A DNA stretch of 64,000 nucleotides from an uncultured Fenollaria sp. (GCF_946221515.1 NZ_CAMJVK010000001.1:7174-71173); one strand, 5' to 3'. Counted from the stretch's first letter, positions 61-28,130 are shown. The notes: generated by a model from the sequence alone, not told the origin. Numbers and translations: made by a program.

Positions 61-3000
61 ATGATAAAATTATTTAAACCTGAAGAACTGAATATTGATA
101 TAGACTTTCTTTCAAATGAAGATAAGATATTTTTTGAAAGTCCTGTGCTTAAGGATAAGACACTTAAAATAACTTATTATTATAATTTAAAAGATCAAAG
201 TCTAAGCCAAAAAGTAGACGAAGTAATTAAGTCTACTTTTTTAAAATTCTCTTTATCAGATGTAAATATTAATGCAGTAGCATATACAAAATGCAATGAA
301 TATTTTGAATCGATAAGAAGTGAGTTTACTGATATTGATGATAATTCATTTGACTGTGAAGAGCTTGACGATCTATATACATTTACATTTGATAATCAGC
401 TTTTGCTTGATAGTTTCAATGCAAATCCATATTTAGAATTGATGAGATATTTATGCTCAAGCTTTGAAAATAAAGCTATAAAAACTAAATGCAAAGAGAT
501 TATTATAAATAAGGAAGAATTTATTGATCAATTAAAGAGCAATGCTGAACAAATAAGTGAAAACTTCAAAATTGTTAAAGAAGAAAAGAGAAAGAGCGAG
601 CCAAGCGCTGAAGCGAGCGGAAAGAAATCATTCTTCAGAAAGAAAAAAGAAATTGATAAGAAGAAATGCATTAAAATAAAAGACATTAGCTCGGATATGG
701 ACTTTATTACTATACAAGGAGAAGTGTTTGAGTATGAATTTGTTGATAGAAATGAATACGCTTTACTTAAGTTTGCCGTTGATGATGGTGAAGAGGCTAT
801 AAGAGTTAGTAAATTCATTAGAAAGAATAAAGAAGGTCAATATGACTATGACTATGATATAGAAAATGGAGTAAAGCTATACCTTAGCGGCAATGTTAAT
901 CTCTTCCAAAATATAATGAGCATAAAGATATATAGCTATGAAATTATTAATGAAGAAAAATTAGATGAAGCTGAAGAAGATATTAAAAGGGTAGAGATCG
1001 GTCTTCACACTAAAATGTCAAGTCAAGAAGGTTTCATATCAGCAAAAGAATACTTTAAAGAAGCTAAAAAGAGAGGCTACGAGTCCATTGGTTTTATGGA
1101 CAAATATGTTGTACAAAGCTATCCAGAAATCATGGATGCAGCTATAGAAACAGGTATTAAACCTCTATATGGCGTTGAAGCAAATCTATTTGACGATACA
1201 AAATCACTAGTTAATAATTACAAAGGCGATAATAAGAATACCTTTGTCGTTTTTGATGTGGAGACAACTGGATTTTCAGCTATTGATGATAGAATTATTG
1301 AAATGGGTGCCGTGAAGATACAAGATGGTAAGGTCATAGATAATTTCTCTGAATTCACTAATCCAGGCTTTCACATACCATATAGAATAACTGAGTTAAC
1401 AACTATTGATGATGCGACCGTAGCAGGCTGTCCATCTTTCGATGAACTGCTAGAAAAGTTTATGGAATTTTGTAAAGACTCAGTTCTTGTAGCTCATAAC
1501 GCTGAGTTCGATATTTCATTTATTAAAAGCTCCATGCATAGAAAAGGCGTTAAATTTGATTTTGAATATATCGATACACTTGAACTATCGAGATACTTAC
1601 TTCCAGATTTGAAAAAGCATAAACTTGACACATTAACATCTTTATTCAACATAACTCTAGAAAATCATCACAGAGCCATTGATGATGCTACAGCAACTGG
1701 CTTTGTCTTCTTAAAGCTTTTAGATCTATTAAAAGAACAAGGCTGCAATGACCTTGAAGCTATCTCGAAAATAAAGTCAAGCAACTATTACAATGTTTAT
1801 AAAATATCAATATTTGCTACAAATCTAGTGGGCTTAAAAAATCTATATAGACTTATTTCACTATCACATATCGATAATTATAATAGGCAGCCAATAGTGT
1901 ATAAGAGTCAAATAGATGCGAACAGAGAAGGGCTTTTAATCGGTAGCGGCACTTATAATGGCCCTATATATAATGCTTGTATTAGATGTGAAGAAAACGA
2001 TAAATTAAAAGAGATGATGAAGTATTTTGACTTTATCGAACTTCAGCCAATAGATCAATATCTATATTTGATTGAAGATGAAAGTCTTCATGAAATGGAT
2101 GCTATTAAAAACATCAATAGAAGACTATATGATAATGCAAAAGAACTTGACATACCTGTCCTTGCTAATGGTGATGTATACTATATAGATCAAAGCGACA
2201 GTGTATATAGATCTGTTCTGGTATTTAATAGAAAAAACTTTGTAGGAAGCAGAAAAGAGTGTAATAATACAGATCATTATTTTAAAACTACTAAAGAACT
2301 TTTAAAGAATTTTCCATATTTAAGCGAAGAAGAAGCTAAGGAAATTGTTATTGATAATACTCTTGCATTTGCTGAAAAATTTGAAAATTTCAGACCAATT
2401 CCTAAGGATACCTTCCCGCCATTTATCGAAAATTCTGATAAAGACTTAAGGGACTGCTGCTATAACAAAGCTACGAGCATATATGGAGATCCTCTTCCTG
2501 AGATTGTCAAGAAGAGGCTTGATAAAGAACTTGATTCAATAATTGGTAATGGTTATGCCGTTTTATACATCATAGCAAGAAAACTTATTTTGCAGTCAAA
2601 TGCCGATGGCTACGTAGTTGGCTCAAGAGGCTCTGTTGGATCATCATTTGCGGCAACAATGAGTGATATAACTGAGGTTAATCCACTTATACCTCACTAC
2701 GTTTGTCCAAATTGTAAACATAGTGAATTTGTTGATGATCCGAAATATGACTCCGGCTTTGACCTTCCTCGTAAAATCTGTCCTGTATGTTCACACGAGA
2801 TGAATAGGGATGGACAAAAGATACCATTCGAGGTTTTCCTAGGCTTTAACGGTGACAAAGAGCCAGATATAGATCTAAACTTTGCTGGCGATTATCAACT
2901 TACAGCTCATAAAAATACTGAAAAGATATTCGGAGAAAATTTTGTATTTAGAGCAGGAACTATTGGTACACTAGCTGATAAGACTGCTGCCGCTTGTATC

Positions 3001-4314
3001 TTAGACTATCTTGAAAAGAAAAATAAAAGCATTTCATATTTGCATGCAATGTTCTTAAGCAAAAGAATAAAAGGCTCTAAGAGAACTACCGGCCAACACG
3101 CTGGTGGGGTAATGGTAGTTCCTAAAAATAAGAGCATACTAGACTTTACTCCTGTTCAAAAACCTGCTGACGATATGAGAACTGATATAATAACAACTCA
3201 TTTTGATTATCATTCGATAAGCGGTAAGATACTAAAACTTGACCTACTTGGTCATGATGTTCCAAACATAATCAAAAATCTTGAAGACTTAACTAATACC
3301 AAAATTGAAGATATACCTTTTGACGATGAAAAAGTACTATCACTCTTCTCATCAACAGAGGCCTTAGGTATTAATAGCGATGATTTAAAGTTTGGTGTTG
3401 GCACTATTGCCATACCTGAATTTGGTACAAACTTCGTTAGAGGCATGCTTAAAGATACCAAGCCAAAAACATTCTCAGACTTAGTAAGAATAAGTGGTCT
3501 TTCACATGGTACAAACGTGTGGAACAGTAACGCGGAAAAGCTTGTAAATGAGATGAACGTACCGATGTCTGAAGTTATTTCTACAAGAGACGACATCATG
3601 AACCAATTGATTGATGCTGGTATGGATAAATCTACTGCATTTAAAATTATGGAGTTCGTTAGAAAAGGAAAACCATTAATACAAAAGAAAATAGTTGACA
3701 ATGAAACTATAATTATAAATTATGAGGATGAGATTAAAAAGTATCCACTTCCTGAGTGGTATCTTGACAGCTGTCATAAGATATCTTATCTATTCCCAAA
3801 GGCGCATGCAGCGGCCTATGTTATGATGAGCTATAGACTTGCTTGGTATAAGGTATATTACCCACAAGCGTTTTATGCAACATACTTTACACAAAAGATA
3901 AATGACTTTGATTATGATGCTCTTGTCCATAGACTTGAAAATTTGGATGCCTTAGTAAGAGAGATTACCCAAAATCCTCATCCAAAGAAAAAAGATGAGG
4001 ACCTATTGTCGCTTGCTGAAGTAGTTAAAGAGATGGAGCTTAGAAATATAAAGATATCGCCAATTGATCTAGATAGATCACTAGCTACAAAGTTTACCGT
4101 AATCGATGGGGAAATCATTCCGCCATTTACAGTTATAGCTGGACTTGGCAAGGACCCTGCTAATAACATTATAAGGGAAAGGGAGCTTAAAGAGTTTAAC
4201 TCTATTGAGGACTTCCAAAAGAGGACTCAAGTAAATGCTACGGTAATCGCATATTTAAAATCAATTAACTTTTTTAAAGACATGCATGATACCAATCAGA
4301 TAAGCTTATTTTAA
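61..4314 (+). CDS. polC: DNA polymerase III, PolC-type (gram-positive replicative polymerase with intrinsic 3'-5' exonuclease)
   Basis: 1417-aa ORF. It has a DEDDh exonuclease motif (FVVFDVETTGFS ... HNAEFD ... HRAIDDA) embedded in PHP and polymerase domains, and a zinc-finger cysteine cluster (CPNC...CPVC). Size and architecture are typical of PolC. Confidence 0.95.
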   Translation: MIKLFKPEELNIDIDFLSNEDKIFFESPVLKDKTLKITYYYNLKDQSLSQKVDEVIKSTFLKFSLSDVNINAVAYTKCNEYFESIRSEFTDIDDNSFDCEELDDLYTFTFDNQLLLDSFNANPYLELMRYLCSSFENKAIKTKCKEIIINKEEFIDQLKSNAEQISENFKIVKEEKRKSEPSAEASGKKSFFRKKKEIDKKKCIKIKDISSDMDFITIQGEVFEYEFVDRNEYALLKFAVDDGEEAIRVSKFIRKNKEGQYDYDYDIENGVKLYLSGNVNLFQNIMSIKIYSYEIINEEKLDEAEEDIKRVEIGLHTKMSSQEGFISAKEYFKEAKKRGYESIGFMDKYVVQSYPEIMDAAIETGIKPLYGVEANLFDDTKSLVNNYKGDNKNTFVVFDVETTGFSAIDDRIIEMGAVKIQDGKVIDNFSEFTNPGFHIPYRITELTTIDDATVAGCPSFDELLEKFMEFCKDSVLVAHNAEFDISFIKSSMHRKGVKFDFEYIDTLELSRYLLPDLKKHKLDTLTSLFNITLENHHRAIDDATATGFVFLKLLDLLKEQGCNDLEAISKIKSSNYYNVYKISIFATNLVGLKNLYRLISLSHIDNYNRQPIVYKSQIDANREGLLIGSGTYNGPIYNACIRCEENDKLKEMMKYFDFIELQPIDQYLYLIEDESLHEMDAIKNINRRLYDNAKELDIPVLANGDVYYIDQSDSVYRSVLVFNRKNFVGSRKECNNTDHYFKTTKELLKNFPYLSEEEAKEIVIDNTLAFAEKFENFRPIPKDTFPPFIENSDKDLRDCCYNKATSIYGDPLPEIVKKRLDKELDSIIGNGYAVLYIIARKLILQSNADGYVVGSRGSVGSSFAATMSDITEVNPLIPHYVCPNCKHSEFVDDPKYDSGFDLPRKICPVCSHEMNRDGQKIPFEVFLGFNGDKEPDIDLNFAGDYQLTAHKNTEKIFGENFVFRAGTIGTLADKTAAACILDYLEKKNKSISYLHAMFLSKRIKGSKRTTGQHAGGVMVVPKNKSILDFTPVQKPADDMRTDIITTHFDYHSISGKILKLDLLGHDVPNIIKNLEDLTNTKIEDIPFDDEKVLSLFSSTEALGINSDDLKFGVGTIAIPEFGTNFVRGMLKDTKPKTFSDLVRISGLSHGTNVWNSNAEKLVNEMNVPMSEVISTRDDIMNQLIDAGMDKSTAFKIMEFVRKGKPLIQKKIVDNETIIINYEDEIKKYPLPEWYLDSCHKISYLFPKAHAAAYVMMSYRLAWYKVYYPQAFYATYFTQKINDFDYDALVHRLENLDALVREITQNPHPKKKDEDLLSLAEVVKEMELRNIKISPIDLDRSLATKFTVIDGEIIPPFTVIAGLGKDPANNIIRERELKEFNSIEDFQKRTQVNATVIAYLKSINFFKDMHDTNQISLF

Positions 4315-4343
4315 TTGACAAAATACATCTATTATAGTATAAT
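4315..4343 (+). promoter_or_regulatory. Consensus sigma-A promoter (TTGACA-17 nt-TATAAT) driving the downstream structured RNA
   Basis: TTGACA at 4315-4320, an exact 17-nt spacer, then TATAAT at 4338-4343. Both hexamers are perfect, read directly from the sequence. Confidence 0.7.
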
Positions 4344-4349
4344 TATCAT

Positions 4350-4921
4350 AGTGGTGTAGTATTCTAGTCAGTATTCTATATCATGAAGGCGGGGCTAAAA
4401 ATCCGCCAAAGAGCGTATCGATGAAGTTCTTGATTTGTGCTTGTGACGCCCAGTCATGGGCATTCTTTGAGAGTAAGGCAGATGGGGCGATCTACAACGG
4501 CATGTAGGCGTTGACCCTGCTGTCGCGGAGGCGTAAGATTTATCTTATGTAGACCTATTTTTTTAAATAGTGTAGCTTGCCTTGAGTGATCTAGTGCGGA
4601 TGATAAGGTCTTTTTATTGAACTTGTGGCCAAAGATCAATAAGAAAAGTTATCGAAACCTAAATTGCAAAAGAGGCTAAGGATATAAAATACTGTTTGGG
4701 AAAACTTCTAGACTAAATCGTAAGATGACTAAAAAGGGATTACAGTGCGGACTAAGTGGCAATCCAGTATTATATTTGGCGACAATATAATTACTAAATT
4801 AATGGGAAACCGCTATGATTGGTGACATATAGCCTTAGTAAGGGAAAACCAACTGGACCTAAGCCGTAATATTTACTTTTTTAGTTTCCACTAAGCTGAT
4901 AGATTACTATCAGCTTTTTTT
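4350..4921 (+). ncRNA. ole: Large structured non-coding RNA; candidate OLE (ornate, large, extremophilic) RNA
   Basis: A roughly 570-nt region with no credible ORF. Its 5' half (4380-4640) is clearly GC-enriched against an AT-rich genome and contains many short complementary segments. It has a perfect upstream promoter, a 3' intrinsic terminator, and a small polytopic membrane protein immediately downstream. The downstream synteny (tlyA, recN) matches the described OLE locus. Assignment to OLE rests on synteny and size, not on recalled primary-sequence motifs. Confidence 0.5.
4893..4921 (+). terminator. Rho-independent terminator ending the ncRNA
   Basis: Stem AGCTGATAG (4894-4902), loop ATTA, stem CTATCAGCT (4907-4915), followed by a T7 run. 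Confidence 0.75.
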
Positions 4922-5073
4922 GTTGTATATAAGCTTTGTTTATGGTATAATAACAATGTAATTCCGATTAATTATAAGGGGTGTAAGAAATTTCAGATTT
5001 TAAAAAAAAGTATAAAGATAAAAGCATTGATAAATTAAATAAAGATAAAAAACATAAAGCTGGTAAAAGTGAT

Positions 5074-5601
5074 TTGAAATGGACGTTATCCATTACCATC
5101 TTTACTTTTGCTATGTCTATAATACTTTCTTATATAATTGATATATTATTAGCAGACGTTGGAATTTTAGTTGGAGTTATACTTCTTTTACTTGTAATAA
5201 TGATAGGTATATTGTTTGATACTGTAGGGGTAAGTGTTACAACAGCTGAAGAAAAACTATTTCATGCTATGGCATCAAATAATATTGAAGAAGGTAAAAT
5301 CGCCATAGGACTAATTAAAAATGCCGATAAAGTATCAAGTTTTTGCAATGATGTAGTTGGTGATATGGCGGGCATTATCTCAGGTGCACTAGGCGCAACA
5401 CTTTTAACAAAGATAGCTTTGCATTTTGATAATGTTAATGTTGCAATCTTAGGAACTTTAATAACTGCATCTGTTGCTGCTGCAACAGTTGGTGGCAAAT
5501 CTTTAGGCAAGTCTGTAGCAATGTTAAAGTATCGAGATATTATTTTTGCTATATCAAAAATTATTTTAAAATTTAAAAAGATATTTAAGAAGAATAAATA
5601 G
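5074..5601 (+). CDS. oapA: Small polytopic membrane protein; candidate OLE-associated protein OapA
   Basis: 175 aa with about four hydrophobic helices and a lysine-rich C-terminal tail. TTG start with a weak RBS; an internal ATG (MSIILSY...) is an alternative start. The call as OapA is by position directly after the candidate OLE RNA. Confidence 0.5.
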   Translation: MKWTLSITIFTFAMSIILSYIIDILLADVGILVGVILLLLVIMIGILFDTVGVSVTTAEEKLFHAMASNNIEEGKIAIGLIKNADKVSSFCNDVVGDMAGIISGALGATLLTKIALHFDNVNVAILGTLITASVAAATVGGKSLGKSVAMLKYRDIIFAISKIILKFKKIFKKNK

Positions 5602-5602
5602 T

Positions 5603-6385
5603 ATGAGATTAGATAAATATATAAGTGAGTTTAAAAATATTGACAGTAGAACTAAGGCTAAGAAATTAGTTTTAGCTGGCTTTGTTTTAGTTAATGGTAA
5701 AACTTTACTAGATCCAAGCTATGATGTCAAAGAAAATGATAGCATAGATATCGACGCAGATAACGACATAACAAGGTATGTATCTAGAGGTGCTCTAAAG
5801 CTAATTAAGGCTATAGAGGCTTTTAAGCTCAATATTAATGACAAGACATGTATTGATATAGGCTCATCAACAGGCGGCTTCACAGACGTTTTAGTGAAGC
5901 GTGGGGCGCGTTTAGTATATGCACTAGATGTCGGAAAAAATCAACTGCATCCATCATTAAAAAATAATGATAAAGTCATTTCATATGAATCTTTTGATGC
6001 TAGAAATATTAGCAATGAAACTTTTGATGAAGACTTTGACATAGTGACTTCTGATCTTAGCTTTATTTCACTCACATTATTGACAGATGCTTTTAATGTA
6101 CTTGTGAAAGAGAATACAAAGCTTATAGTCTTAATAAAACCTCAGTTTGAGTCAGGAAAGATAAAGAGGAAAAACGGTATATTTAATGATGCTAAATTAC
6201 ATATAAACGCAATAAATAATGTGATTCTATCTTTCAGGGAGAAAGGTATATATTTAAATGATATATGCAAGTCGCCTATAGAGGGAGGAGAAGGAAATAT
6301 TGAGTATCTTGCTCTATTTACAAGAGATGATAATCACAGTAATATCGATATAAGAAGATTGGTTAAAGAATCTTTAAGTAGGTGA
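5603..6385 (+). CDS. tlyA: TlyA-family rRNA 2'-O-methyltransferase (S4 domain plus FtsJ-like methyltransferase; 'hemolysin A')
   Basis: N-terminal S4 RNA-binding domain and a class I SAM methyltransferase core (DIGSSTGGFTDVL). Length 260 aa. Confidence 0.85.
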   Translation: MRLDKYISEFKNIDSRTKAKKLVLAGFVLVNGKTLLDPSYDVKENDSIDIDADNDITRYVSRGALKLIKAIEAFKLNINDKTCIDIGSSTGGFTDVLVKRGARLVYALDVGKNQLHPSLKNNDKVISYESFDARNISNETFDEDFDIVTSDLSFISLTLLTDAFNVLVKENTKLIVLIKPQFESGKIKRKNGIFNDAKLHINAINNVILSFREKGIYLNDICKSPIEGGEGNIEYLALFTRDDNHSNIDIRRLVKESLSR

Positions 6386-6389
6386 AGAA

Positions 6390-8057
6390 ATGCTTAGTAA
6401 ATTATATATAAAAGATTTTGCTATAATTGATTCATTAAATCTTGATTTCAACGATGGATTCTCAGCTATTTCTGGAGAAACAGGTAGTGGTAAATCCATC
6501 ATAGTAGATGCCTTAGCTGTAGTTCTAGGCGCCAAGGCTAGTAAAAATCAAATAAGAGACGGCTTTGATTCGTCAAGCATAGAAGCGCATATTGATATAG
6601 ATAATAAAAAACTAGCTAAAGTAAATTCTATTTTAAATGCTAAAATTAAGAGTCCACTTATTTTAAAGAGAATTATATATAGAGATAAGCCTAGTGAAAA
6701 CTATATCAACGATATAAGCGTAAGTCTGAAGGATTTAAGTGAAATAAGTGCTTTAAGTATCAATATATTAGGACAGAAAGAACAATTTACACTGCTTGAC
6801 AAAAATGAGCACATAAACATACTTGATTATTTTGGGGATAATGCGTACAAGACCTTGCTCAAAGAAATAAATGAATTATATTTAAAGATAGAAAAAAGCA
6901 ATAAGCGTTTAAAAGAGCTTCCTAAGGATCAAAAAGATATCGATAATCAAATAGATTTTATAGAATTTCAAAAAAATGAAATAGATGAAGCTGAAATTTT
7001 AGATGGAGAAGATGAAGAATTAGAGACTGAGATAAAAAGACTTAATTCTAGTGAAGACATCAAAAAGACTGCCTATAGCATTAATCAAATGCTTAGAGAT
7101 AGTGATAATTACAGTGTAGATTCAATCTTATCCGACGCGAGTAATTTAGTCGATGACTTAAAAGAGTATTCAAAAGACGCTGAAGCTTGGTATGAAAAAC
7201 TCATGGACTATCAAGAGCTTATTAAGGATATAAATGAAGAGATAAAATACTTTTCAGACTCTATTGACTATGATCAAGAACGGCTATATGAACTAAGTAA
7301 GAGGCTTGACGAGATAAATAAAATAAAGTATAAGTATGGCAATAGTATTGCTGAAATAAATGCATATAGAGAAGACTTAAATAATAAGTTAAATGAAATA
7401 AGAAATATTGAACAAGAAAAAGCAGCTTTAGAAAAGTCACTTATCGAAGATAAAAAATCTTATGATGAAAAAGCGAGTGATTTAAGTCTCAAAAGAAAAG
7501 CACTTGCTAAAACAATCGCAAAAATGCTTGAAGATGAGTTAAGAACTTTAAATATGAGCAATATTCAAGTTGAGATTTCGGTAGAAGCAAAGAAGGCCAT
7601 GAAAGATTATGGCTATGATGACGTAGAAATTTTAATGAGTGCAAATAAAGGTCAATCAGTTAAACCTATAAGCGAAATTATTTCTGGTGGTGAAATGTCA
7701 AGACTAATGCTTGCAATTAAAAATTTAGGCGCTGATTTTGACAATATCGACACAATCATCTTTGACGAGATAGACGCAGGGCTTAGCGGCTACACTGCTA
7801 GCTGCCTTGCGAATAAACTTAGAGAATTAGCAAATAAATATCAAATAATATCAATATCACACTTACCACAGATATTAGCTAAAGCTGAGGAACACTACCT
7901 TGTAGAAAAAGCTAGCGATAGCGAGGCAACTATAAGTCATGTTAAAAAACTAGATTACGACGGAAGAGTGATAGAGTTAGCAAGGCTACTAAGCTCAGGT
8001 AAGATAAGTGATATAGCAATAAAAAATGCAAAAGAATTATTAAAAAGTGAGGACTAG
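6390..8057 (+). CDS. recN: DNA repair protein RecN
   Basis: Walker A (SGETGSGKS) at the N-terminus, a long coiled-coil middle, and a C-terminal signature/Walker B region. 555 aa. Confidence 0.93.
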   Translation: MLSKLYIKDFAIIDSLNLDFNDGFSAISGETGSGKSIIVDALAVVLGAKASKNQIRDGFDSSSIEAHIDIDNKKLAKVNSILNAKIKSPLILKRIIYRDKPSENYINDISVSLKDLSEISALSINILGQKEQFTLLDKNEHINILDYFGDNAYKTLLKEINELYLKIEKSNKRLKELPKDQKDIDNQIDFIEFQKNEIDEAEILDGEDEELETEIKRLNSSEDIKKTAYSINQMLRDSDNYSVDSILSDASNLVDDLKEYSKDAEAWYEKLMDYQELIKDINEEIKYFSDSIDYDQERLYELSKRLDEINKIKYKYGNSIAEINAYREDLNNKLNEIRNIEQEKAALEKSLIEDKKSYDEKASDLSLKRKALAKTIAKMLEDELRTLNMSNIQVEISVEAKKAMKDYGYDDVEILMSANKGQSVKPISEIISGGEMSRLMLAIKNLGADFDNIDTIIFDEIDAGLSGYTASCLANKLRELANKYQIISISHLPQILAKAEEHYLVEKASDSEATISHVKKLDYDGRVIELARLLSSGKISDIAIKNAKELLKSED

Positions 8058-15125: not shown

Positions 15126-16124
15126 GTGGTAGTAATTAGAGGAGCAGTAGATGCTCAAAATACGGCAAGTTCAATAATTAATCAAAGCAAAATTTTATTA
15201 GAAGAGATAATAAACGTAAATAATTTAGATAAAAAAGAGATTAAATGCGTTTTATTTACTGTAACTCAAGACTTAGACAAGGCATATCCAGCTCTTGCAG
15301 CTAGATATATTGGCCTAAATGATACAGCTTTGATATGTATAAACGAAATGCTTGTAGAAGGACAGATGCTAGGTGTTATTAGACTAAGCGTATTTTATAA
15401 TGATGACATTGAAAAAAAAGATGTATATATAGGTAAAACGCAAAGCTTAAGAAAGGATAAATATATGAGTAATAATATAAAAGTGGCTATAGATGGACCA
15501 ACAAGTGCTGGCAAAAGCACTATAGCTAAGCTATTAGCAGAAAAACTTAAGATTAATTATGTAGATACTGGTTCAATGTATAGAGCACTAACACTAAAGG
15601 TTTTAAACAATAATATTGATCCTAAATCTGAAGAAGATGTTGTGGCCTTAGCTGAAAAAACTAAGATAGATTATTTTGAAAACCATATCTTCCTAGATGG
15701 GCTTTGTGTTGATGACAAGATAAGAAACGAGCGTATCGATAAAAACGTTTCCTACGTTTGTCAGTATAGAGATGTAAGAAAAAGACTAGTAAGTTTGCAA
15801 CGAGAGATAGCTTCTAAATCATCTGTGATTATGGATGGACGTGATATAGGCACAGTTGTTTTAAAGGATGCCGACTACAAGTTCTTTTTAACAGCTTCGG
15901 CAGACGTAAGAGCCAAAAGAAGATACAAAGAATACTTGGAAAAAGGTTTAGACGTTAATTTTGATGACATCAAAAAGGACCTTATCCTTAGAGATGACTA
16001 CGACTCACATAGGGAAGTAGATCCACTTGTAAAAGCAAGTGACGCTATAGAAGTAAATACAGATGATAAAAACATCGAAGAAACAGTTGAGCTTATGCTT
16101 TCTTATATAAATGGAGATAAATAA
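15126..16124 (+). CDS. cmk: In-frame fusion of AroH-type chorismate mutase (N-terminal, about 110 aa) and cytidylate kinase (C-terminal, about 220 aa)
   Basis: N-terminus VVIRGAVDAQNT...VLFTVTQDLDKAYPA aligns to the B. subtilis AroH class. After ...QSLRKDKY the frame continues without a stop into MSNNIKVAIDGPTSAGKSTIAKL, a canonical Cmk start and P-loop. GTG start at 15126. An internal ATG at 15466 with an upstream AAAGGA could also give free Cmk. Confidence 0.8.
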   Translation: MVVIRGAVDAQNTASSIINQSKILLEEIINVNNLDKKEIKCVLFTVTQDLDKAYPALAARYIGLNDTALICINEMLVEGQMLGVIRLSVFYNDDIEKKDVYIGKTQSLRKDKYMSNNIKVAIDGPTSAGKSTIAKLLAEKLKINYVDTGSMYRALTLKVLNNNIDPKSEEDVVALAEKTKIDYFENHIFLDGLCVDDKIRNERIDKNVSYVCQYRDVRKRLVSLQREIASKSSVIMDGRDIGTVVLKDADYKFFLTASADVRAKRRYKEYLEKGLDVNFDDIKKDLILRDDYDSHREVDPLVKASDAIEVNTDDKNIEETVELMLSYINGDK

Positions 16125-16672
16125 TGTATAGAGTCATTAGATTTGTTGGAATAATAATTTGCAGAATATTATTCAGATTTGAAATAAAAGGCAAGGAAAA
16201 TTTAAAACAAGATATAAATTTTATAGTCGCAGGCAATCATAGATCAAACTGGGACCCCATATTTGTAGCGATGAATTTAGGTACAAACGTAGCTTTCTTC
16301 GCAAAAAAAGAACTTTACGAAAACCCATTTACAAGGTTTATACTTAATAAATCGAACGCTATAAAAGTAGATAGGGAAAAAGCAGATATCAAAGCCATAA
16401 AAGATGTTATGAGAACACTTAAGAATGGCAATAATTTAATTTTCTTTCCAGAAGGCACTAGAAATGTAGATGGAACAGCAAAGGCAAAAGATGGCATACA
16501 CTTGATTGCAAAAAGAACTGGCACAAACATAGTACCTTGCCATATTGAATCGAGCTACAAAATTTTTTCTAAAGTTAAAATGACTTTTGGCGAAATAATT
16601 GATGTAGACGAATTTGAGAAGCTAGAAGGAGATTTCTCCGAAAACTTAATGGATAGGATAGCGTCATTATAA
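16124..16672 (+). CDS. plsC: 1-acyl-sn-glycerol-3-phosphate acyltransferase
   Basis: HxxxxD motif (NHRSNWDP) and FPEGTR motif. 182 aa. Confidence 0.85.
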   Translation: MYRVIRFVGIIICRILFRFEIKGKENLKQDINFIVAGNHRSNWDPIFVAMNLGTNVAFFAKKELYENPFTRFILNKSNAIKVDREKADIKAIKDVMRTLKNGNNLIFFPEGTRNVDGTAKAKDGIHLIAKRTGTNIVPCHIESSYKIFSKVKMTFGEIIDVDEFEKLEGDFSENLMDRIASL

Positions 16673-18789
16673 TGAAGATATATTTAGCAAAGTACTACGG
16701 CTTTTGTTCAGGTGTTAGATTGGCCGTAAAAAAAGCAAATGAGTTTTTAGAAGAAAACAAAGAAGCGGAAATAGTTGGTGACTTAATTCACAATCAAACA
16801 GTTATCGATGATTTTACTAGACGTGGGCTAAAAAAAATTGATGATTATAAAAAAATATTTTCAAATAATATAATCATACGCGCGCATGGTGAAACCATTG
16901 AAAACACTAAGCTCCTAGAGGATAATCATAAAAATATTTGCGATACAACTTGTATAAAAGTAAAAAATATTCACGAATTAGTGGAAAAATATTCAAATAT
17001 AGGTTATAATGTTATTATAGCGGGTGATAAAGAACATCCAGAAGTAAAAGCTATAGTTTCTCATTCTAAAACAGAAGCAATCGTCATTAAGGATTTAGAT
17101 GAAGCTAAAAAAATTATTGGCTTAAATCATGTTGCATTCTTTGCACAATCAACATTCATTCATGATAAATTTGATAAGATGTCAAAGTGCTTAGAAGAAC
17201 ATAATGAGGATGTGCTTGTATTTAACACTATATGCAATGCTACTGAAAACAGACAGAAGGCTGTTAGGGAGCTTGCAAATAAAGTAGATATGGTTTTAGT
17301 CTTTGGATCAAATTTCAGTTCAAATACTAAAAAATTGTATGAGATTTCGAAAACTATTAATCCTAAAACATATTTACTTGAAAATATTCATGAGCTGGAC
17401 ATGAGTTTAATAAAACCAGATTATAATATTGGTATTACAGCAGGTGCTTCGGTGCCTGATGATATAATTAAGGAGGCAATTAAAGTAATGGAAAATTTAA
17501 ACCACGATGAAACAATGAAAAAGGAGGATGCTAAAGAAACAAAAAAAGATGAAATGATTAAAGCTATTGATGATTCTTTCAAGAGAATATCAAGAGGCGA
17601 AATCATTGAAGGTGAAGTTCTTTATGTAACTGACAACGATGTTAGTGTTAACATCAACTTTAGAAGCGACGGTATAATCAAAAAAGAAGACCTAGCTGAA
17701 GAAGATGTTAATCCAAAGGATCTATATAAACAAGGCGATAAGATCAAAGTTTATGTAGTTAAGATTGACGATGGAGAAGGTAACGTAGTTCTATCAACTA
17801 AGAAGTTGAAAGAAATGGAAGTTTGGGAAAAGATTGAAGAAGTTAAGGAAAATGACGAAGTAGTTTCTGTAAAAGTTAAATCTGTCACTAAAGGTGGCTT
17901 GATTGTTAACTATAGCGGAATCCAAGGATTTATACCAGCTTCATTAGTATCAGTTAGATATAAAGAAAACCTTGAAGAATTTGTTGGACAAAATCTAGAC
18001 GTTGTAATTATCGATGTTGATATAAATAAAAGAAGATTAGTATTCTCTAGAAAAGCTGTTGAAAAGAAAGAGCTTGATAAGAAGAGAGAAGAAGCTTGGG
18101 AAAACATCAAAGAAGGAGAAATAGTCAAAGGTATAGTAGCTAGAATCGTTGATTATGGTGCTTTCATTGACCTAGGCGGAATCGATGGCTTAGTTCACAT
18201 CACAGACCTTACATGGGGCAGAATTAGAAATCCTAAGGAAGTTTTAAAACAAGGTGAAGAAATTGAAGTTAAAGTTTTATCAGTAGATAAAGAAAGAAAT
18301 AGAATTTCACTTGGATTAAAACAAACAGTGCCTGAACCATGGACATTATTTACAGAAAAATACCACGAAGGCGATGTTGTTGAAGTAGAAGTTGTTAATA
18401 TTGAATCATACGGTGCTTTCGTTAGAATTATGGAAGGCGTAGATGCTTTACTACACGTTTCACAAATTTCTCATAAGAGAGTTAATGATCCAAAGGACGT
18501 ATTAAAAGTTGGCGATCGCTTCGAAGTTATGATTACTGAAATTCATGAAGACAAGAAGGTTAGCGTATCTAAGAGAAGACTTGAAGAACCAGTAGAAGAA
18601 GAACAAGAATACGAAGAAGAAGCTCCAGCAGCTGAAGAAGTTCATGAAGAAGAAAAACCTGAAGTTGAAGAAAAAGAAGTAAAGGAAGCTGAAGTAAAAG
18701 AATTACCTGTACAAAATGATGACTTATCAGAAGATATGGGTGCGTTATTTAAAAATGCAATAGAAAATTCTGAATCAGAAGAACAATAA
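16672..18789 (+). CDS. ispH: Bifunctional 4-hydroxy-3-methylbut-2-enyl diphosphate reductase (IspH/LytB) / 30S ribosomal protein S1
   Basis: N-terminal 280 aa is IspH-like with conserved Cys residues. The C-terminal part has four S1 domains and an acidic tail. This is a fusion arrangement known in Clostridia. Confidence 0.9.
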   Translation: MKIYLAKYYGFCSGVRLAVKKANEFLEENKEAEIVGDLIHNQTVIDDFTRRGLKKIDDYKKIFSNNIIIRAHGETIENTKLLEDNHKNICDTTCIKVKNIHELVEKYSNIGYNVIIAGDKEHPEVKAIVSHSKTEAIVIKDLDEAKKIIGLNHVAFFAQSTFIHDKFDKMSKCLEEHNEDVLVFNTICNATENRQKAVRELANKVDMVLVFGSNFSSNTKKLYEISKTINPKTYLLENIHELDMSLIKPDYNIGITAGASVPDDIIKEAIKVMENLNHDETMKKEDAKETKKDEMIKAIDDSFKRISRGEIIEGEVLYVTDNDVSVNINFRSDGIIKKEDLAEEDVNPKDLYKQGDKIKVYVVKIDDGEGNVVLSTKKLKEMEVWEKIEEVKENDEVVSVKVKSVTKGGLIVNYSGIQGFIPASLVSVRYKENLEEFVGQNLDVVIIDVDINKRRLVFSRKAVEKKELDKKREEAWENIKEGEIVKGIVARIVDYGAFIDLGGIDGLVHITDLTWGRIRNPKEVLKQGEEIEVKVLSVDKERNRISLGLKQTVPEPWTLFTEKYHEGDVVEVEVVNIESYGAFVRIMEGVDALLHVSQISHKRVNDPKDVLKVGDRFEVMITEIHEDKKVSVSKRRLEEPVEEEQEYEEEAPAAEEVHEEEKPEVEEKEVKEAEVKELPVQNDDLSEDMGALFKNAIENSESEEQ

Positions 18790-25659: not shown

Positions 25660-26926
25660 TATTTACAAAAAATACGATTTATCAGATGCTGTCATAAATT
25701 TAGTTAATGACGCAAGTGATGAATTAAGCGAAACATACAAAGAGTATGAAAAAAATAAAGAGATTAATCAAATAAAAGTTATACATGCTATGCAAAAAAA
25801 TAACTTAGCTGCATCAGACTTTTATTATGCAAGCGGTTATGGATATGGCGATATTGGTAGAGACAAAATTGAAGAAATTTTCAAAGACATCTTCAATGCA
25901 GAGGATGCTTTAGTAAGAACTTCTATAGTTTCAGGTACTCATGCTATATATATAATGCTTTCTTCGATTCTTGATCATGGAGATGAATTTATATACGTAA
26001 CTGGCACTCCTTATGACACTATACAAAAAAGTATAGGCCTAATTGGCGATTTAAGGGACTCATTAATGAAAAAAGGTATAATGTATAGCCAAGTGGAGCT
26101 AAAAGCTGCTACGATCGATTTTGAGGCCTTAGAAGCGAAAATCGCAAAAAACACCAAAGCTATAGTCGTGCAAAGGTCAATTGGCTACGAATTTAGAAAG
26201 GCAATCAATCTTCACGCAATAAAAGATGATATGCTTAAGTTTAAAGAGAAGCATCCAGACATTGTTATAATGTATGACAATTGCTATGGTGAATTTACCG
26301 ACAGTATCGAGCCGACAGATATTGGTGCAGATATTATAGCTGGATCACTACTTAAAAATCTTGGTGCTGGTATAAGTTTAGGTGGCGGTTACTTAGTAGG
26401 AAGAAAAGATCTTATAGAGCTAGCTGCAGATCGTTTATATGCACCAGGCCTTGGTAAAGAGCTAGGCTTATCTTACGGCACGCTTAGAACGACATTACAA
26501 GGCTTATACATGTCGCCACGAGTAGTATGTGAAGCTCTTAAGACACAAAGCTTATTCTCATATGTGTTCACAAAGCTTGGCTTTGAGTGCACGCCAGAAT
26601 TTAACGAGCACAAATCAGATATAGTTTGTGCAATAAAGTTCAAAGATCCAGATATACTTATTAAGTTCTGTAAATCGATACAAAAGGCAGCTTGCGTTGA
26701 TTCATTCTTAACGCCAGAACCTTGGGACATGCCAGGCTACGAGAATAAAATAATTATGGCGTCAGGCAGCTTTATAGATGGCTCATCCATAGAAATATCT
26801 GCTGATGGTCCTATAAGAGAGCCATATATAGCTTATTTCCAAGGATCTATGTCATTAGAGCAAGGTAAATTAGGCTTAATGATAGCCTTACAAGACCTAG
26901 TAGACGCAGGGAAGATATCATTATAA
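25652..26926 (+). CDS. PLP-dependent Cys/Met-metabolism family protein (YnbB / 'aluminium resistance protein' family, methionine gamma-lyase-like)
   Basis: 424 aa with a fold-type I PLP enzyme signature. This family usually follows miaA/hfq in Firmicutes. Confidence 0.75.
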   Translation: MNNIYKKYDLSDAVINLVNDASDELSETYKEYEKNKEINQIKVIHAMQKNNLAASDFYYASGYGYGDIGRDKIEEIFKDIFNAEDALVRTSIVSGTHAIYIMLSSILDHGDEFIYVTGTPYDTIQKSIGLIGDLRDSLMKKGIMYSQVELKAATIDFEALEAKIAKNTKAIVVQRSIGYEFRKAINLHAIKDDMLKFKEKHPDIVIMYDNCYGEFTDSIEPTDIGADIIAGSLLKNLGAGISLGGGYLVGRKDLIELAADRLYAPGLGKELGLSYGTLRTTLQGLYMSPRVVCEALKTQSLFSYVFTKLGFECTPEFNEHKSDIVCAIKFKDPDILIKFCKSIQKAACVDSFLTPEPWDMPGYENKIIMASGSFIDGSSIEISADGPIREPYIAYFQGSMSLEQGKLGLMIALQDLVDAGKISL

Positions 26927-26944
26927 TAAAATATAAGCAAAATA

Positions 26945-26975
26945 AAAGTATTAGAGCGAATCTAATACTTTTTTC
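26945..26975. terminator. Bidirectional intrinsic terminator between the convergent ynbB-like and recombinase genes
   Basis: Stem AAAGTATTAG (26945-54), loop AGCGAAT, stem CTAATACTTT (26962-71), followed by a T-run. An A-rich tract lies on the other side. It overlaps the recombinase stop codon. Confidence 0.65.
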
Positions 26976-27936
26976 TATTGGCTAATGGATTATTTTCAAT
27001 TGATTTTTTAAGGGTGCTATTATCAAGATGGGTATATATCTGTGTTGTAGCAACTGATGTGTGACCAAGTATCTCTTGCAAGGACCTTATATCTACTGAG
27101 CCATATTTATACATAAGGGTAGCGGCAGTATGTCTTAATTTGTGGACTGTAAACTTGTTTTTGTCAAGGCCAGCCTCAAGTAAGTACTTATCAAACATGT
27201 ACTGAACAGCGCGGTTTGACATACGAACCTTCTTTTGAGAGATGAATAGGGCGTGTTTATCAATTTCTTTAACATCTTTTGGTCTTACTTCAATATAGTC
27301 CTTTATTGCACTAAATGTAGCATCGTTTAAATATATTTGTCTTTCTTTATTGCCTTTACCAACGACATTGATGTATCTATCCTCATTAATAGAGTCTAAA
27401 TTAAGGCTAGTAAGCTCAGATATACGTAGACCACAGTTTAAAAACAGCATAATTATAGCATAGTCACGATTGCGCATTTCGTTATTTTCGTTCTTCATAA
27501 TGGTATTTAATAGCGTTTCGCATTGATTAAGACTTAAGTATATTGGTAGACGCTGATCAATTTTAGGCATTTCTAATTCATTTGCAACGTTATTATCAAT
27601 TAGATTAACCTTCATTAGGTAAGCATATAGAGCATGAACTACAGCAGCTTTTCTATATTTGCCATAGTTAGTATTGTCAAGATCTTCATCAGCGTAGGAT
27701 ATAAAAGCATATAGGTCATTAATTTGAAGCTTTTTAATGTCATCAATAGTAACAGCTGTATAATAATATTCATCGTTTTCATCTAAAATTTCTAAACGAA
27801 TAGCGACAAAGTTAAGGAAAGATTTTAAGTCGTAGTAATAACTTTGAATAGTATTAGGAGACAAACCCTTAACTGATTTTAAATATCCTAAAAAGTCTTT
27901 TATGTAGTTAGGATCGTTTTTTTGTGTAATTGCCAT
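26962..27936 (-). CDS. Site-specific tyrosine recombinase, XerC/XerD family
   Basis: C-terminal catalytic signature HKLRHTAATLMY...LGHTSVATTQIYTHL with R, HxxR and a Tyr nucleophile. 324 aa. Flanked by housekeeping genes, not phage genes. Confidence 0.85.
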   Translation of the reverse strand: MAITQKNDPNYIKDFLGYLKSVKGLSPNTIQSYYYDLKSFLNFVAIRLEILDENDEYYYTAVTIDDIKKLQINDLYAFISYADEDLDNTNYGKYRKAAVVHALYAYLMKVNLIDNNVANELEMPKIDQRLPIYLSLNQCETLLNTIMKNENNEMRNRDYAIIMLFLNCGLRISELTSLNLDSINEDRYINVVGKGNKERQIYLNDATFSAIKDYIEVRPKDVKEIDKHALFISQKKVRMSNRAVQYMFDKYLLEAGLDKNKFTVHKLRHTAATLMYKYGSVDIRSLQEILGHTSVATTQIYTHLDNSTLKKSIENNPLANRKKY

Positions 27937-27996: not shown

Positions 27997-28130
27997 TTTA
28001 TCTAAATCTATTATACCACCCTTTTATATAAATGTCAAAGCTTTTTTCTAATATTTATTGTTTAATTAAACTAAATCACTTTTATCATTATACAAATTTC
28101 ATTTATAAAAATTGCTTATAAGATTGTATA

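What the first reader, a model, noticed from the sequence alone, without database searches (positions are those of the whole stretch)
4315..6385. Candidate OLE RNA with an OapA-like membrane protein between polC and tlyA-recN
The sequence shows a roughly 570-nt stretch with no plausible ORF. It begins just after a perfect TTGACA-17-TATAAT promoter and ends in a clean intrinsic terminator. Its first about 260 nt (4380-4640) are visibly GC-enriched against a roughly 30% GC background and contain many short inverted complementarities, as expected for a highly structured RNA.

I tested and rejected tmRNA, RNase P RNA and SRP RNA. The invariant T-loop/CCA motifs, the GGAAAGUCC P4 motif and the GGAAGGAAGCAGC domain-IV motif are all absent.

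The genes that follow are a small four-helix membrane protein, tlyA and recN. From established descriptions of OLE (ornate, large, extremophilic) RNA, its gene is about 600 nt, is extremely highly expressed, and is always followed by the membrane protein gene oapA. It sits in a conserved neighbourhood, ...ispA-ole-oapA-dxs-tlyA-nadK-argR-recN. This locus has the same order minus dxs, nadK and argR.

OLE ribonucleoproteins remain functionally enigmatic. The surrounding genome looks like a non-extremophilic Clostridia/Tissierellia-type anaerobe. If confirmed, an OLE locus here extends the known distribution of OLE and gives a compact variant of the locus.
Basis: partly seen in the sequence, partly recalled or inferred. 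Interest (0 to 1): 0.75.

Follow-up and report, generated by a model that had tools for sequence, protein, structure and literature searches.

The report
OLE RNA gene with its OapA partner

Summary
The observation and the main interpretation are confirmed. Rfam's OLE model (RF01071) matches window 4335-4907 (+) over its full length at 423 bits (E 5.5e-121), and it is the only Rfam hit in the 64 kb. The RNA has a perfect TTGACA-17-TATAAT promoter, which is rare by chance, and a strong intrinsic terminator.

All hallmark substructures are present. These are P1, P3/P3.1, the three kinds of dimerisation loop, and the P13 bulge plus GNRA site that OapB binds. Only P7 and P8 are cut down to mini-hairpins, a type of variation already published.

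The downstream ORF is an OapA:
- it has four transmembrane helices;
- it carries the invariant DxxxD motif;
- its best structural match is the CNNM transporter MtCorB (7M1U), the same top match published for H. halodurans OapA;
- its homologs lie directly after an OLE gene in 23 of 28 loci.

The ORF most likely starts at ATT 4990, not TTG 5074. The host is about 95% identical to Fenollaria timonensis, a gut anaerobe. That falls inside OLE's known range (2,822 Bacillota genomes in the 2024 census), so the distribution is not extended. The compact ole-oapA-tlyA-recN order is shared with related Tissierellia-type loci.

Small new leads are a probable AUU start for oapA and OapA homologs that lack an adjacent OLE. 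Interest is low.

The parts
61..4314 (+). polC (DNA polymerase III PolC type, 1417 aa), the upstream neighbour
   Evidence: Pfam PHP, RNase_T, DNA_pol3_alpha, finger and HHH_6 domains. F. massiliensis has the same synteny, rseP-ispG-polC-ole.
4315..4343 (+). sigma-70-type promoter of ole: -35 TTGACA at 4315-4320, 17-nt spacer, -10 TATAAT at 4338-4343. The transcription start is inferred at about 4350.
   Evidence: 12/12 consensus match. Two such sites in the window against 0.02 expected. Conserved in four Fenollaria genomes. The transcription start is an inference.
4350..4892 (+). OLE RNA structured core, running from the 5' strand of P1 (AGUGG, 4350-4354) to the 3' strand of P1 (CCACU, 4888-4892). 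The Rfam match spans 4335-4907.
   Evidence: RF01071 at 423.4 bits, E 5.5e-121, full length. Of 159 model pairs, 131 are canonical, 18 are deleted and 10 are non-canonical. In the 18-sequence alignment 89.7% of cells are paired against 41-47% in slid controls, 104 of 148 pairs change on both sides, and 0 of 500 shuffles reach this. Identity to F. massiliensis is 98.2% against 72-87% for flanking genes.
4369..4382 (+). 5' strands of P3 (4369-4374) and P3.1 (4377-4382). They pair with 4689-4694 and 4681-4686, giving 6 + 6 bp. In the published model this helix spans the membrane.
   Evidence: Recovered by the MFE fold. Covariation: P3 91.7% and P3.1 97.2% of cells paired, with 11 of 12 pairs changing on both sides. 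The published typical length is 12 bp (PMC12265935).
4388..4407 (+). P4 hairpin with the A-rich loop CUAAAAAU (dimerisation centre 1)
   Evidence: alignment. The loop is conserved across loci. Its role is taken from the cryo-EM summary in PMC12265935.
4427..4524 (+). P5/P5.1 (loop GCCCA) and P6/P6.1 (loop ACGGCA), the kissing-loop partners, flanked by the conserved J4a/5 sequence AUCGAUGAAG and the J5/6 sequence that form the OapC k-turn in H. halodurans
   Evidence: The k-turn itself was not modelled here.
4531..4573 (+). Shortened P7 (8-bp hairpin, 4531-4550) and P8 (6-8-bp hairpin, 4553-4573). The J6/7-to-P8 segment is 39 nt against 77-101 nt in typical OLE RNAs.
   Evidence: Model deletions, segment lengths and the local fold.
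4579..4676 (+). Full-length P9 arm with the palindromic loop UGGCCA (4626-4631), dimerisation centre 4
4770..4790 (+). P13 hairpin: UUAUA, bulged U 4775, UUG, GCGA loop at 4779-4782, CAA, UAUAA. This matches the OapB-binding site (GNRA tetraloop plus a single-nucleotide bulge).
   Evidence: alignment read against the requirements in PMC7936274. Helix 23 is 93.8% paired and all 8 pairs change on both sides.
4893..4921 (+). Intrinsic terminator of ole: AAGCUGAUAG-AUUA-CUAUCAGCUU followed by a U run
   Evidence: Identical in four Fenollaria genomes.
4923..4951 (+). Possible separate promoter for oapA-tlyA-recN: TTGTAT, 17 nt, TGgTATAAT (extended -10)
   Evidence: Read from the sequence and conserved in the F. 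timonensis group. The -35 box is weak, so this is inference only.
4976..4992 (+). Shine-Dalgarno AAGGGGTG (4976-4983), in-frame stop TAA (4984-4986), and the probable AUU start codon (4990-4992) of oapA
4990..5601 (+). oapA, coding for OLE-associated protein A (203 aa from ATT 4990; the 175-aa TTG 5074 version is probably truncated). DxxxD lies at residues 121-125.
5603..6385 (+). tlyA (rRNA cytidine-2'-O-methyltransferase family). It starts 1 nt after the oapA stop codon.
   Evidence: TIGR00478 at 200.4 bits against a cut-off of 185.8; S4 and FtsJ domains.
6390..8057 (+). recN
   Evidence: TIGR00634 at 454 bits against a cut-off of 407.85.

Best explanation
Window 4350-4921 encodes a bona fide OLE (ornate, large, extremophilic) RNA of about 575 nt. 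The host is a Fenollaria (gut anaerobe, Bacillota) about 95% identical to F. timonensis.

**Shown here**
- The RNA has its own consensus promoter and a strong intrinsic terminator.
- It adopts the conserved OLE fold, with P7 and P8 reduced to mini-hairpins.
- It keeps the loops that in solved OLE structures make the RNA homodimer: the P4 A-rich loop, the P5.1/P6.1 kissing loops and the palindromic P9 loop.
- It keeps the 12-bp P3/P3.1 helix and the P13 bulge plus GNRA site.
- It evolves far more slowly than its neighbours.
- The next gene, oapA (4990-5601), encodes a four-helix, CNNM-like membrane protein with the DxxxD motif and lysine-rich termini.

**Inferred from work on Halalkalibacterium halodurans and the clostridial cryo-EM structures**
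- An OapA dimer binds the RNA and holds it at, or through, the cytoplasmic membrane.
- OapB and OapC help it fold.
- The particle helps the cell cope with stresses such as cold, short-chain alcohols, excess Mg2+ and poor carbon sources.
- Its chemistry is still unknown.

**Inferred from comparative sequence**
- In this lineage oapA is translated from an AUU codon placed 6 nt after a strong Shine-Dalgarno sequence.
- oapA-tlyA-recN and the following genes form a tightly packed operon. It is expressed either from a weak extended -10 promoter after the terminator or by read-through.
For: **OLE identity**
- full-length RF01071 hit at 423.4 bits, E 5.5e-121, and the only Rfam family in 64 kb.
- 131 of 159 model pairs are canonical.
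- in an 18-sequence alignment 89.7% of cells are paired against 41-47% in slid controls. 104 of 148 pairs have compensatory changes. P1, P3 and P3.1 are supported although they are absent from the Rfam model.
- the promoter is perfect and statistically rare, and there is a terminator.
- the P4, P5.1, P6.1 and P9 loop motifs are present.
- OLE is 98.2-99.8% identical across Fenollaria species, while flanking genes are 72-96% identical.

**OapA identity**
- the family is large, and DxxxD is invariant in the 28 aligned members.
- OLE lies immediately upstream of the homolog in 23 of 28 loci.

**AUU start**
- TTG 5074 reads TTA in 3 of the 4 genomes about 95% identical to the window, and in two more Fenollaria loci.
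- The 28-codon Lys-rich extension stays in frame, with mostly synonymous or conservative changes.
- Relatives start at a TTG one codon after the conserved ATT. That TTG reads TCA here.
- A stop codon lies directly upstream of the ATT.

**Functions of family members** come from PMC12265935, PMC7936274, PMC9723947 and PMC10898510.
Against: - No expression data, so the transcript ends, abundance and membrane localisation are unverified.
- P7 and P8 are much shorter than consensus. The cryo-EM summary in PMC12265935 says they make no dimer contacts, and natural variants lack them.
- Ten model pairs are non-canonical.
- The window OapA has no Pfam, NCBIfam or PDB sequence hit. Its assignment rests on context, motif, fold and homologs, not on a curated model or a direct alignment to the H. 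halodurans protein.
- Whether this genome encodes OapB and OapC is unknown, because only 64 kb is available.
- AUU initiation is rare in bacteria and is untested here.
Confidence: 0.95

Rival explanations
1. The RNA region is a decaying OLE relic or pseudogene. It is kept only because it lies in an operon and no longer functions.
For: P7 and P8 are heavily truncated and 10 model pairs are non-canonical. The score of 423 bits is lower than the 450-550 bits seen in other loci.
Against: OLE is 98.2% identical between the window and F. massiliensis, while oapA, tlyA, recN and polC are 72-87% identical. The promoter and terminator are intact. All dimerisation loops and the OapB site are intact. The few substitutions in P7 are loop changes or A-U to G-U changes. 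P7 and P8 are already described as dispensable variable regions (PMC11332333, PMC12265935).
Confidence: 0.02
2. The structured region is mainly a cis-acting leader of the oapA-tlyA-recN mRNA. On this view it is an attenuator or riboswitch-like 5' UTR ending in a regulated terminator, not a free-standing RNA.
For: It lies directly upstream of oapA and ends in a terminator that could be read through. In H. halodurans, ole is part of one polycistronic transcript (PMC12265935). The promoter proposed for oapA has a weak -35 box (sequence).
Against: The RNA belongs to a family shown to act in trans as a membrane RNP (PMC12265935). The terminator is a 10-bp stem with a U run, and no conserved alternative anti-terminator was seen. 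The conserved core is far larger than any known leader. The two views do not exclude each other, because read-through could still feed oapA.
Confidence: 0.05
3. The membrane protein starts at TTG 5074 (175 aa), as the first reader and gene callers assumed, and the upstream in-frame stretch is untranslated.
For: TTG is a standard start codon. Public gene calls give 175-aa (P0004, 111 member sequences) and 162-aa forms. AUU starts are rare.
Against: The codon reads TTA in F. timonensis GD5, UMGS110, the Hadza MAG, L024 and L025, and no Shine-Dalgarno sequence precedes it. The 28 upstream codons are in frame in all 8 genomes despite an A8 run, and their changes are mostly synonymous or conservative. 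All other family members have a basic N-terminal tail before the invariant Trp. A strong Shine-Dalgarno sequence lies 6 nt before ATT 4990. Starting at 5074 would remove 11 of the 12 N-terminal Lys/Arg residues.
Confidence: 0.25
4. The 203-aa protein is simply a truncated CNNM/MpfA-type Mg2+ transporter unrelated to the RNA, and its adjacency to ole is coincidental.
For: The best structural matches are CorB and CorC transporters. Homologs give weak PF01595 hits. One database source names a homolog a Mg2+ and Co2+ transporter.
Against: It has no CBS or CorC domains. It has four rather than three transmembrane helices and carries the OapA-specific DxxxD motif (PMC11332333). Its homologs follow an OLE gene in 23 of 28 loci from very different Bacillota.
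Confidence: 0.03

Closest known systems
OLE RNA / OapA-OapB-OapC ribonucleoprotein of Halalkalibacterium (Bacillus) halodurans
   Same: Same RNA family (RF01071, full length). The ole-oapA gene pair is the same. OapA has the DxxxD motif and a four-helix CNNM-like fold. The P13 bulge plus GNRA (OapB site) and the conserved J4a/5 and J5/6 sequences are present.
   Different: The host is a mesophilic gut anaerobe rather than an alkaliphile. P7 and P8 are reduced to mini-hairpins. Here ole has its own consensus promoter and terminator, whereas in H. halodurans it is embedded in a long polycistronic transcript. dxs, nadK and argR are absent from the cluster, and polC replaces ispA upstream. oapA probably starts at AUU. 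Whether OapB and OapC are present is unknown.
OLE RNAs of Clostridium acetobutylicum and C. botulinum (cryo-EM homodimers; Kretsch 2025 and Wang 2025, as summarised in PMC12265935)
   Same: All four dimerisation elements are present: the P4 A-rich loop, the P5.1/P6.1 kissing loops and the palindromic P9 loop. The roughly 12-bp P3/P3.1 stem is conserved. The host is an anaerobic member of the Clostridia.
   Different: P7 and P8 are shorter. No structure or dimerisation data exist for this RNA.
Published OLE 'variant 1' (TANB77) and 'variant 2' (RF39) RNAs (PMC11332333)
   Same: Size is reduced in the J6/7-to-P8 region. The host is gut-associated with a small genome.
   Different: P9 is full length and the OapB site at the end of P13 is intact, unlike typical variant 1. 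P7 and P8 are shortened rather than absent, unlike variant 2. This RNA is best described as full-length OLE with minimal P7 and P8. Relatives form a graded series for the J6/7-to-P8 segment of 39, about 47, about 65 and 79 nt.
CNNM/CorB/CorC/MpfA Mg2+ transporters (PF01595; PDB 7M1U, 7CFG)
   Different: There are no cytosolic CBS or CorC domains. OapA has an extra transmembrane helix, the DxxxD motif and basic tails, and its gene is coupled to an RNA gene.

Membership tests
OLE RNA (Rfam RF01071) | Covariance-model score above the curated gathering threshold over the full model | tested here: met
   423.4 bits against 50, E 5.5e-121, model 1-616 of 616, not truncated.
OLE RNA (Rfam RF01071) | Conserved multi-helix secondary structure supported by covariation | tested here: met
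   131 of 159 model pairs are canonical. On 18 OLE sequences including the window, 89.7% of cells are paired against 41-47% when partners are slid. 104 of 148 pairs change on both sides, and 0 of 500 shuffles reach this.
OLE RNA (Rfam RF01071) | Long-range helices P1 and P3/P3.1 (about 12 bp) joining domain 1 and domain 2 | tested here: met
   P1 is 4350-4354 with 4888-4892. P3 is 4369-4374 with 4689-4694. P3.1 is 4377-4382 with 4681-4686. These helices are 92-100% paired across loci with compensatory changes.
OLE RNA (Rfam RF01071) | Conserved dimerisation loops (P4 A-rich loop, complementary P5.1/P6.1 loops, palindromic P9 loop) | tested here: met
   CUAAAAAU, GCCCA, ACGGCA and UGGCCA are all present. 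Dimer formation itself cannot be tested with these tools.
OLE RNA (Rfam RF01071) | [quoted passage not shown] | tested here: met
   At 4770-4790 the sequence is UUAUA, bulged U, UUG, [GCGA], CAA, UAUAA. The requirement comes from PMC7936274.
OLE RNA (Rfam RF01071) | OapC site: a k-turn formed from J4a/5, J5/6 and the left strand of P6 | tested here: inconclusive
   The conserved joining sequences AUCGAUGAAGUUC and GAGU-AAGG are present and match those of related Clostridia and Tissierellia loci. The k-turn geometry was not modelled.
OLE RNA (Rfam RF01071) | Gene lies immediately upstream of oapA, in a Bacillota anaerobe or extremophile | tested here: met
   oapA is at 4990-5601. The host is about 95% identical to Fenollaria timonensis GD5.
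OLE RNA (Rfam RF01071) | Full-length P7 and P8 stems (typical of the family, not defining) | tested here: not met
   18 model pairs are deleted. The segment is 39 nt against 77-101 nt. The literature treats this as common, tolerated variation (PMC11332333, PMC12265935).
OLE RNA (Rfam RF01071) | High cellular abundance, membrane localisation and stress phenotypes on deletion | not testable with these tools
   These need RNA-seq or a Northern blot, fractionation or imaging, and genetics.
OapA (OLE-associated protein A) | Encoded directly downstream of ole, with homologs co-located with OLE | tested here: met
   The window has this arrangement. So do 23 of 28 homolog loci that have upstream sequence.
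OapA (OLE-associated protein A) | DxxxD motif | tested here: met
   D121-V-V-G-D125. Both Asp residues are invariant in 28 aligned homologs.
OapA (OLE-associated protein A) | Small protein with four predicted transmembrane helices | tested here: met
   AlphaFold2 helices at 29-54, 59-85, 112-145 and 151-179, pLDDT 81. The hydropathy profile agrees.
OapA (OLE-associated protein A) | CNNM-like fold without CBS or CorC domains, with MtCorB 7M1U as the closest solved structure | tested here: met
OapA (OLE-associated protein A) | Cluster of positively charged residues on the cytoplasmic face | tested here: met
   There are 12 K/R in residues 1-30 and 9 K/R in residues 180-203. The N-terminal cluster exists only if translation starts at ATT 4990.
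OapA (OLE-associated protein A) | Direct sequence match to experimentally studied H. halodurans OapA or to a curated OapA model | not tested
   Pfam, NCBIfam and the PDB sequence search returned no OapA match.
OapA (OLE-associated protein A) | Binds OLE RNA cooperatively and recruits it to the membrane | not testable with these tools
   This needs biochemistry or imaging.

The most novel reading that the evidence does not exclude
In the F. timonensis lineage, oapA has lost its ancestral TTG start (TTG to TCA) and is now initiated at the adjacent AUU codon. AUU is a rare start that initiation factor 3 discriminates against. This would keep OapA scarce relative to an OLE RNA driven by a consensus promoter, and could tie assembly of the particle to the state of the translation machinery.

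Separately, OapA homologs in some Christensenellales-type genomes sit in the canonical xseAB-ispA context with no OLE gene. They have lost the otherwise invariant F-H-x-M motif. That points to this loop as an RNA-dependent part of OapA.
Probability: 0.4. Interest if true: 0.35.

Novelty: already known. Interest (0 to 1): 0.2.

Why it matters
OLE is one of the largest and best conserved bacterial RNAs that still lacks a known biochemical function. Each confirmed locus is mildly useful comparative material. This one adds no new kind of element and does not widen the known host range.

Its practical value is threefold.

1. **A compact natural OLE.** It has minimal P7 and P8, and comes from a culturable human-gut anaerobe. 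It has a clean stand-alone promoter and terminator, which is convenient for expression or structural work.
2. **An annotation correction.** Database OapA entries of 175 or 162 aa in this clade are probably N-terminally truncated, because the start is a non-canonical AUU.
3. **A small comparative lead.** OLE-less OapA homologs have lost the FHxM motif. This could help map the RNA-protein interface.

Tried and rejected
- **Other RNA classes.** The whole-window Rfam scan found nothing except OLE. ARAGORN found no tRNA or tmRNA.
- **Pfam and NCBIfam on the membrane protein.** There were no significant hits. At relaxed thresholds only noise appeared (DUF1761 at 20.8 bits, below its cut-off) and no CNNM hit for the window protein. 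Homologs reach 17-26 bits on PF01595, below the 28.4 cut-off. These libraries therefore cannot confirm or refute OapA.
- **PDB sequence search with OapA.** No hit at E <= 1.
- **Published census.** Searching the supplement of PMC11332333 for Fenollaria, Peptoniphilaceae or Tissierellales found nothing, because only a 5-kb text file is held. I could not confirm that this genus is listed.
- **Literature on the neighbourhood and start codon.** I searched for polC, tlyA and recN in the OLE neighbourhood and for the oapA start codon. Nothing was retrievable.
- **TTG 5074 as the start.** Rejected as the most likely start.
- **GTG 4981 as the start.** Rejected. It lies inside the Shine-Dalgarno sequence and is followed at once by TAA. 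In L025 the 206-aa gene call from that GTG looks like a caller artefact.
- **The A8 run at 5006-5013 as a slippery or phase-variable site.** Rejected. It is interrupted in the Hadza MAG (L004) and F. massiliensis (L023), and its length is constant in the others.
- **Classification as 'variant 1' OLE.** Rejected. P9 and the OapB site are intact.
- **OapB and OapC genes.** Not searched for, because only 64 kb of the genome is available and no reference sequences were to hand.
Full report
**1. Observation**

The region between polC (61-4314) and the next coding gene contains no plausible ORF. The only ORF of at least 50 aa is a 61-aa antisense TTG ORF at 4454-4639.

A perfect TTGACA-17-TATAAT promoter lies at 4315-4343. 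A 10-bp stem, 4-nt loop terminator with a T run lies at 4893-4921. The exact promoter pattern occurs twice in the 64-kb window against 0.02 expected from dinucleotide-preserving shuffles.

GC peaks at 0.47 over 4400-4599 against 0.23-0.38 in the flanks. The predicted 576-nt transcript folds more stably than shuffles (z = -3.2).

**2. Identity of the RNA**

A gathering-threshold Rfam scan of the whole window returned one hit. It is RF01071 (OLE) at 4335-4907 (+), 423.4 bits against a threshold of 50, E 5.5e-121, covering model positions 1-616 of 616. No tRNA or tmRNA was found.

I mapped the model's 159 base pairs onto the window. 131 are canonical, 18 are deleted and 10 are non-canonical. All the deletions fall in the two hairpins between J6/7 and P9. 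Locally these fold as an 8-bp P7 (4531-4550) and a 6-8-bp P8 (4553-4573).

The J6/7-to-P8 segment is 38-40 nt in Fenollaria. It is about 47 and about 65 nt in two Tissierellia-type relatives, 79 nt in Haloimpatiens, and 77-101 nt in other loci.

The rest of the architecture is complete:
- the P4 hairpin with loop CUAAAAAU;
- the P5.1 loop GCCCA and the P6.1 loop ACGGCA;
- a full-length P9 arm with the palindromic loop UGGCCA;
- P13 with a one-nucleotide bulge and a GCGA tetraloop;
- a second GNRA hairpin (GUGA) at 4812-4833.

According to PMC12265935, the P4, P5.1/P6.1 and P9 loops are the four contacts of the OLE homodimer seen by cryo-EM, while P7 and P8 make none. According to PMC7936274, the P13 bulge plus GNRA is the OapB site.

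The MFE fold also recovers P1 (4350-4354 with 4888-4892) and P3/P3.1 (6 + 6 bp). These helices are not in the Rfam model but are in the published consensus.

I aligned 18 OLE RNAs from the loci fetched here. The window's structure is 89.7% paired against 41-47% when partners are slid by 1-3 columns. 104 of 148 pairs have changes on both sides, and no shuffle out of 500 reaches the observed values.

**3. Host and conservation**

The OapA protein retrieved 22 genomic loci. The top four are Fenollaria timonensis GD5 and three uncultured gut Fenollaria or 'Clostridiales' MAGs. The window is 94.5-95.3% identical to them over 9.4-11.6 kb, and 82.7% identical to a contig (L023) that encodes exactly the OapA protein NCBI assigns to F. 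massiliensis.

F. timonensis is a strict anaerobe from human stool (PMC5310172; taxonomy).

Per-region identity shows strong constraint on the RNA. OLE is 99.8% identical to F. timonensis and 98.2% identical to F. massiliensis. For the same two comparisons, polC is 95.4% and 86.8%, oapA 95.4% and 72.3%, tlyA 92.8% and 79.2%, and recN 95.0% and 80.2%. This rules out a decaying relic.

**4. The membrane protein**

The ORF has no significant Pfam, NCBIfam or PDB sequence match. It does have 3,822 homologs in the large protein collection, most of about 200 aa.

An alignment of 28 homologs shows invariant D121 and D125, the DxxxD motif that PMC11332333 gives as the OapA hallmark. W31, F-H-x-M and TVGGK are also conserved.

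Homologs score just below threshold on PF01595, as that paper also describes. Rfam finds an OLE gene immediately upstream of the homolog in 23 of the 28 loci that have upstream sequence. The protein is therefore an OapA.

**5. Start codon of oapA**

It has no Shine-Dalgarno sequence.

The 28 codons upstream stay in frame in all eight Fenollaria-type sequences. Their substitutions are mostly synonymous or conservative. They encode the Lys-rich tail that every family member has before the invariant Trp.

F. massiliensis and L024 read ATT-TTG at the head of this frame and start at the TTG. The window and five relatives read ATT-TCA. A stop codon (TAA 4984-4986) lies one codon before the ATT, except in L025, where it reads TAC. 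A strong Shine-Dalgarno sequence (AAGGGGTG, 4976-4983) lies 6 nt before the ATT.

The most economical reading is initiation at AUU 4990, giving a 203-aa protein. Other lineages use ATG or TTG. This is an inference and needs proteomic or ribosome-profiling proof.

**6. Gene neighbourhood**

- Haloimpatiens shows the canonical order: asp23-nusB-xseA-xseB-ispA-ole-oapA-dxs-tlyA-nadK-argR-recN.
- Three Tissierellia-type loci already have ole-oapA-tlyA-recN without dxs, nadK and argR. Two of them keep xseAB-ispA upstream.
- Fenollaria has rseP-ispG-polC upstream.
- Downstream in the window the order is nudix, pdp, an M50-like gene, scpA, scpB, an rsuA-like gene, mnmM and further genes up to an ispH-rpsA fusion and miaB.

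The 'compact locus' is therefore a clade trait, not a peculiarity of this genome. Only the polC junction is specific to the genus.

**7. Mechanism**

Sequence analysis shows a stand-alone, strongly promoted and terminated OLE gene with every element needed for the published fold, dimer and OapB contact. It also shows a co-located OapA.

By homology with H. halodurans and the clostridial cryo-EM work (PMC12265935, PMC7936274, PMC9723947, PMC10898510), I infer the following:
- an OapA dimer tethers an OLE dimer at, or through, the membrane;
- accessory proteins assist folding;
- the particle supports adaptation to stress.

The biochemical activity remains unknown for the whole family.

**8. Novelty**

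OLE is described as typical of anaerobic and extremophilic Bacillota, with 2,822 GTDB hits. Shortened J6/7-P8 regions are described as common variation (PMC11332333, PMC12265935). This locus is a standard member that routine Rfam annotation detects. I rate it already known and of low interest.

Three minor leads remain: the probable AUU start, the truncated database OapA entries, and the OLE-less OapA homologs noted below.

Noticed in passing
L007 5938-6576; L018 5881-6594; L021 5995-6573; L020 282-824; L022 6001-6435: Five OapA homologs from Christensenella or Clostridia MAGs have no OLE hit, even at E <= 0.01. In three of them the gene directly abuts an upstream ORF of 265-291 aa. That ORF is preceded by ORFs of about 399 and about 72 aa, which by size look like xseA-xseB-ispA, so there is no room for a 600-nt RNA gene. 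All five keep the DVVGD motif but have lost the otherwise invariant F-H-x-M motif.
   Followed up: partly
window 4990-5601, and database proteins P0004, P0006 and P0011: Public gene calls for this clade's OapA are 175 aa (111 member sequences) or 162 aa. The likely start is a non-canonical ATT, so these entries are probably N-terminally truncated and lack the basic tail.
   Followed up: yes
window 28010-28038 (-) and 26926-26962: The only other perfect TTGACA-17-TATAAT in the window lies upstream of a tyrosine-recombinase (phage-integrase family) gene at 26962-27936 (-). All genes before about 26.93 kb are on the + strand and the large annotated ORFs after it are on the - strand. They therefore converge here, which may mark a replication-terminus-like region.
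   Followed up: no
window 16672-18789 and 15126-16124: Two fused genes are present: ispH-rpsA (4-hydroxy-3-methylbut-2-enyl diphosphate reductase fused to ribosomal protein S1; NF000907 at 673 bits) and chorismate mutase (AroH type) fused to cytidylate kinase. An isoprenoid gene therefore remains about 11 kb downstream of ole although ispA and dxs are absent from the cluster. ispG lies just upstream of polC in F. massiliensis.
   Followed up: no
L027 1-3110: In a Tissierellaceae MAG the canonical upstream genes of ole are replaced by a group II intron (RF00029 at 1102-1178, with an RT/maturase ORF) and a DDE transposase. The OLE-oapA-tlyA-recN unit remains intact.
   Followed up: no
window 4335-4350: The first 16 positions or so of the Rfam OLE model align with the -10 box and the spacer down to the transcription start, not with transcribed RNA. 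The Rfam coordinates therefore overshoot the likely 5' end by about 15 nt.
   Followed up: partly
window 4350-4892 compared with L023: The OLE gene is by far the most conserved segment of the locus. It is 98.2% identical to F. massiliensis, while oapA is only 72.3% identical. The RNA is under much tighter constraint than its protein partner.
   Followed up: yes
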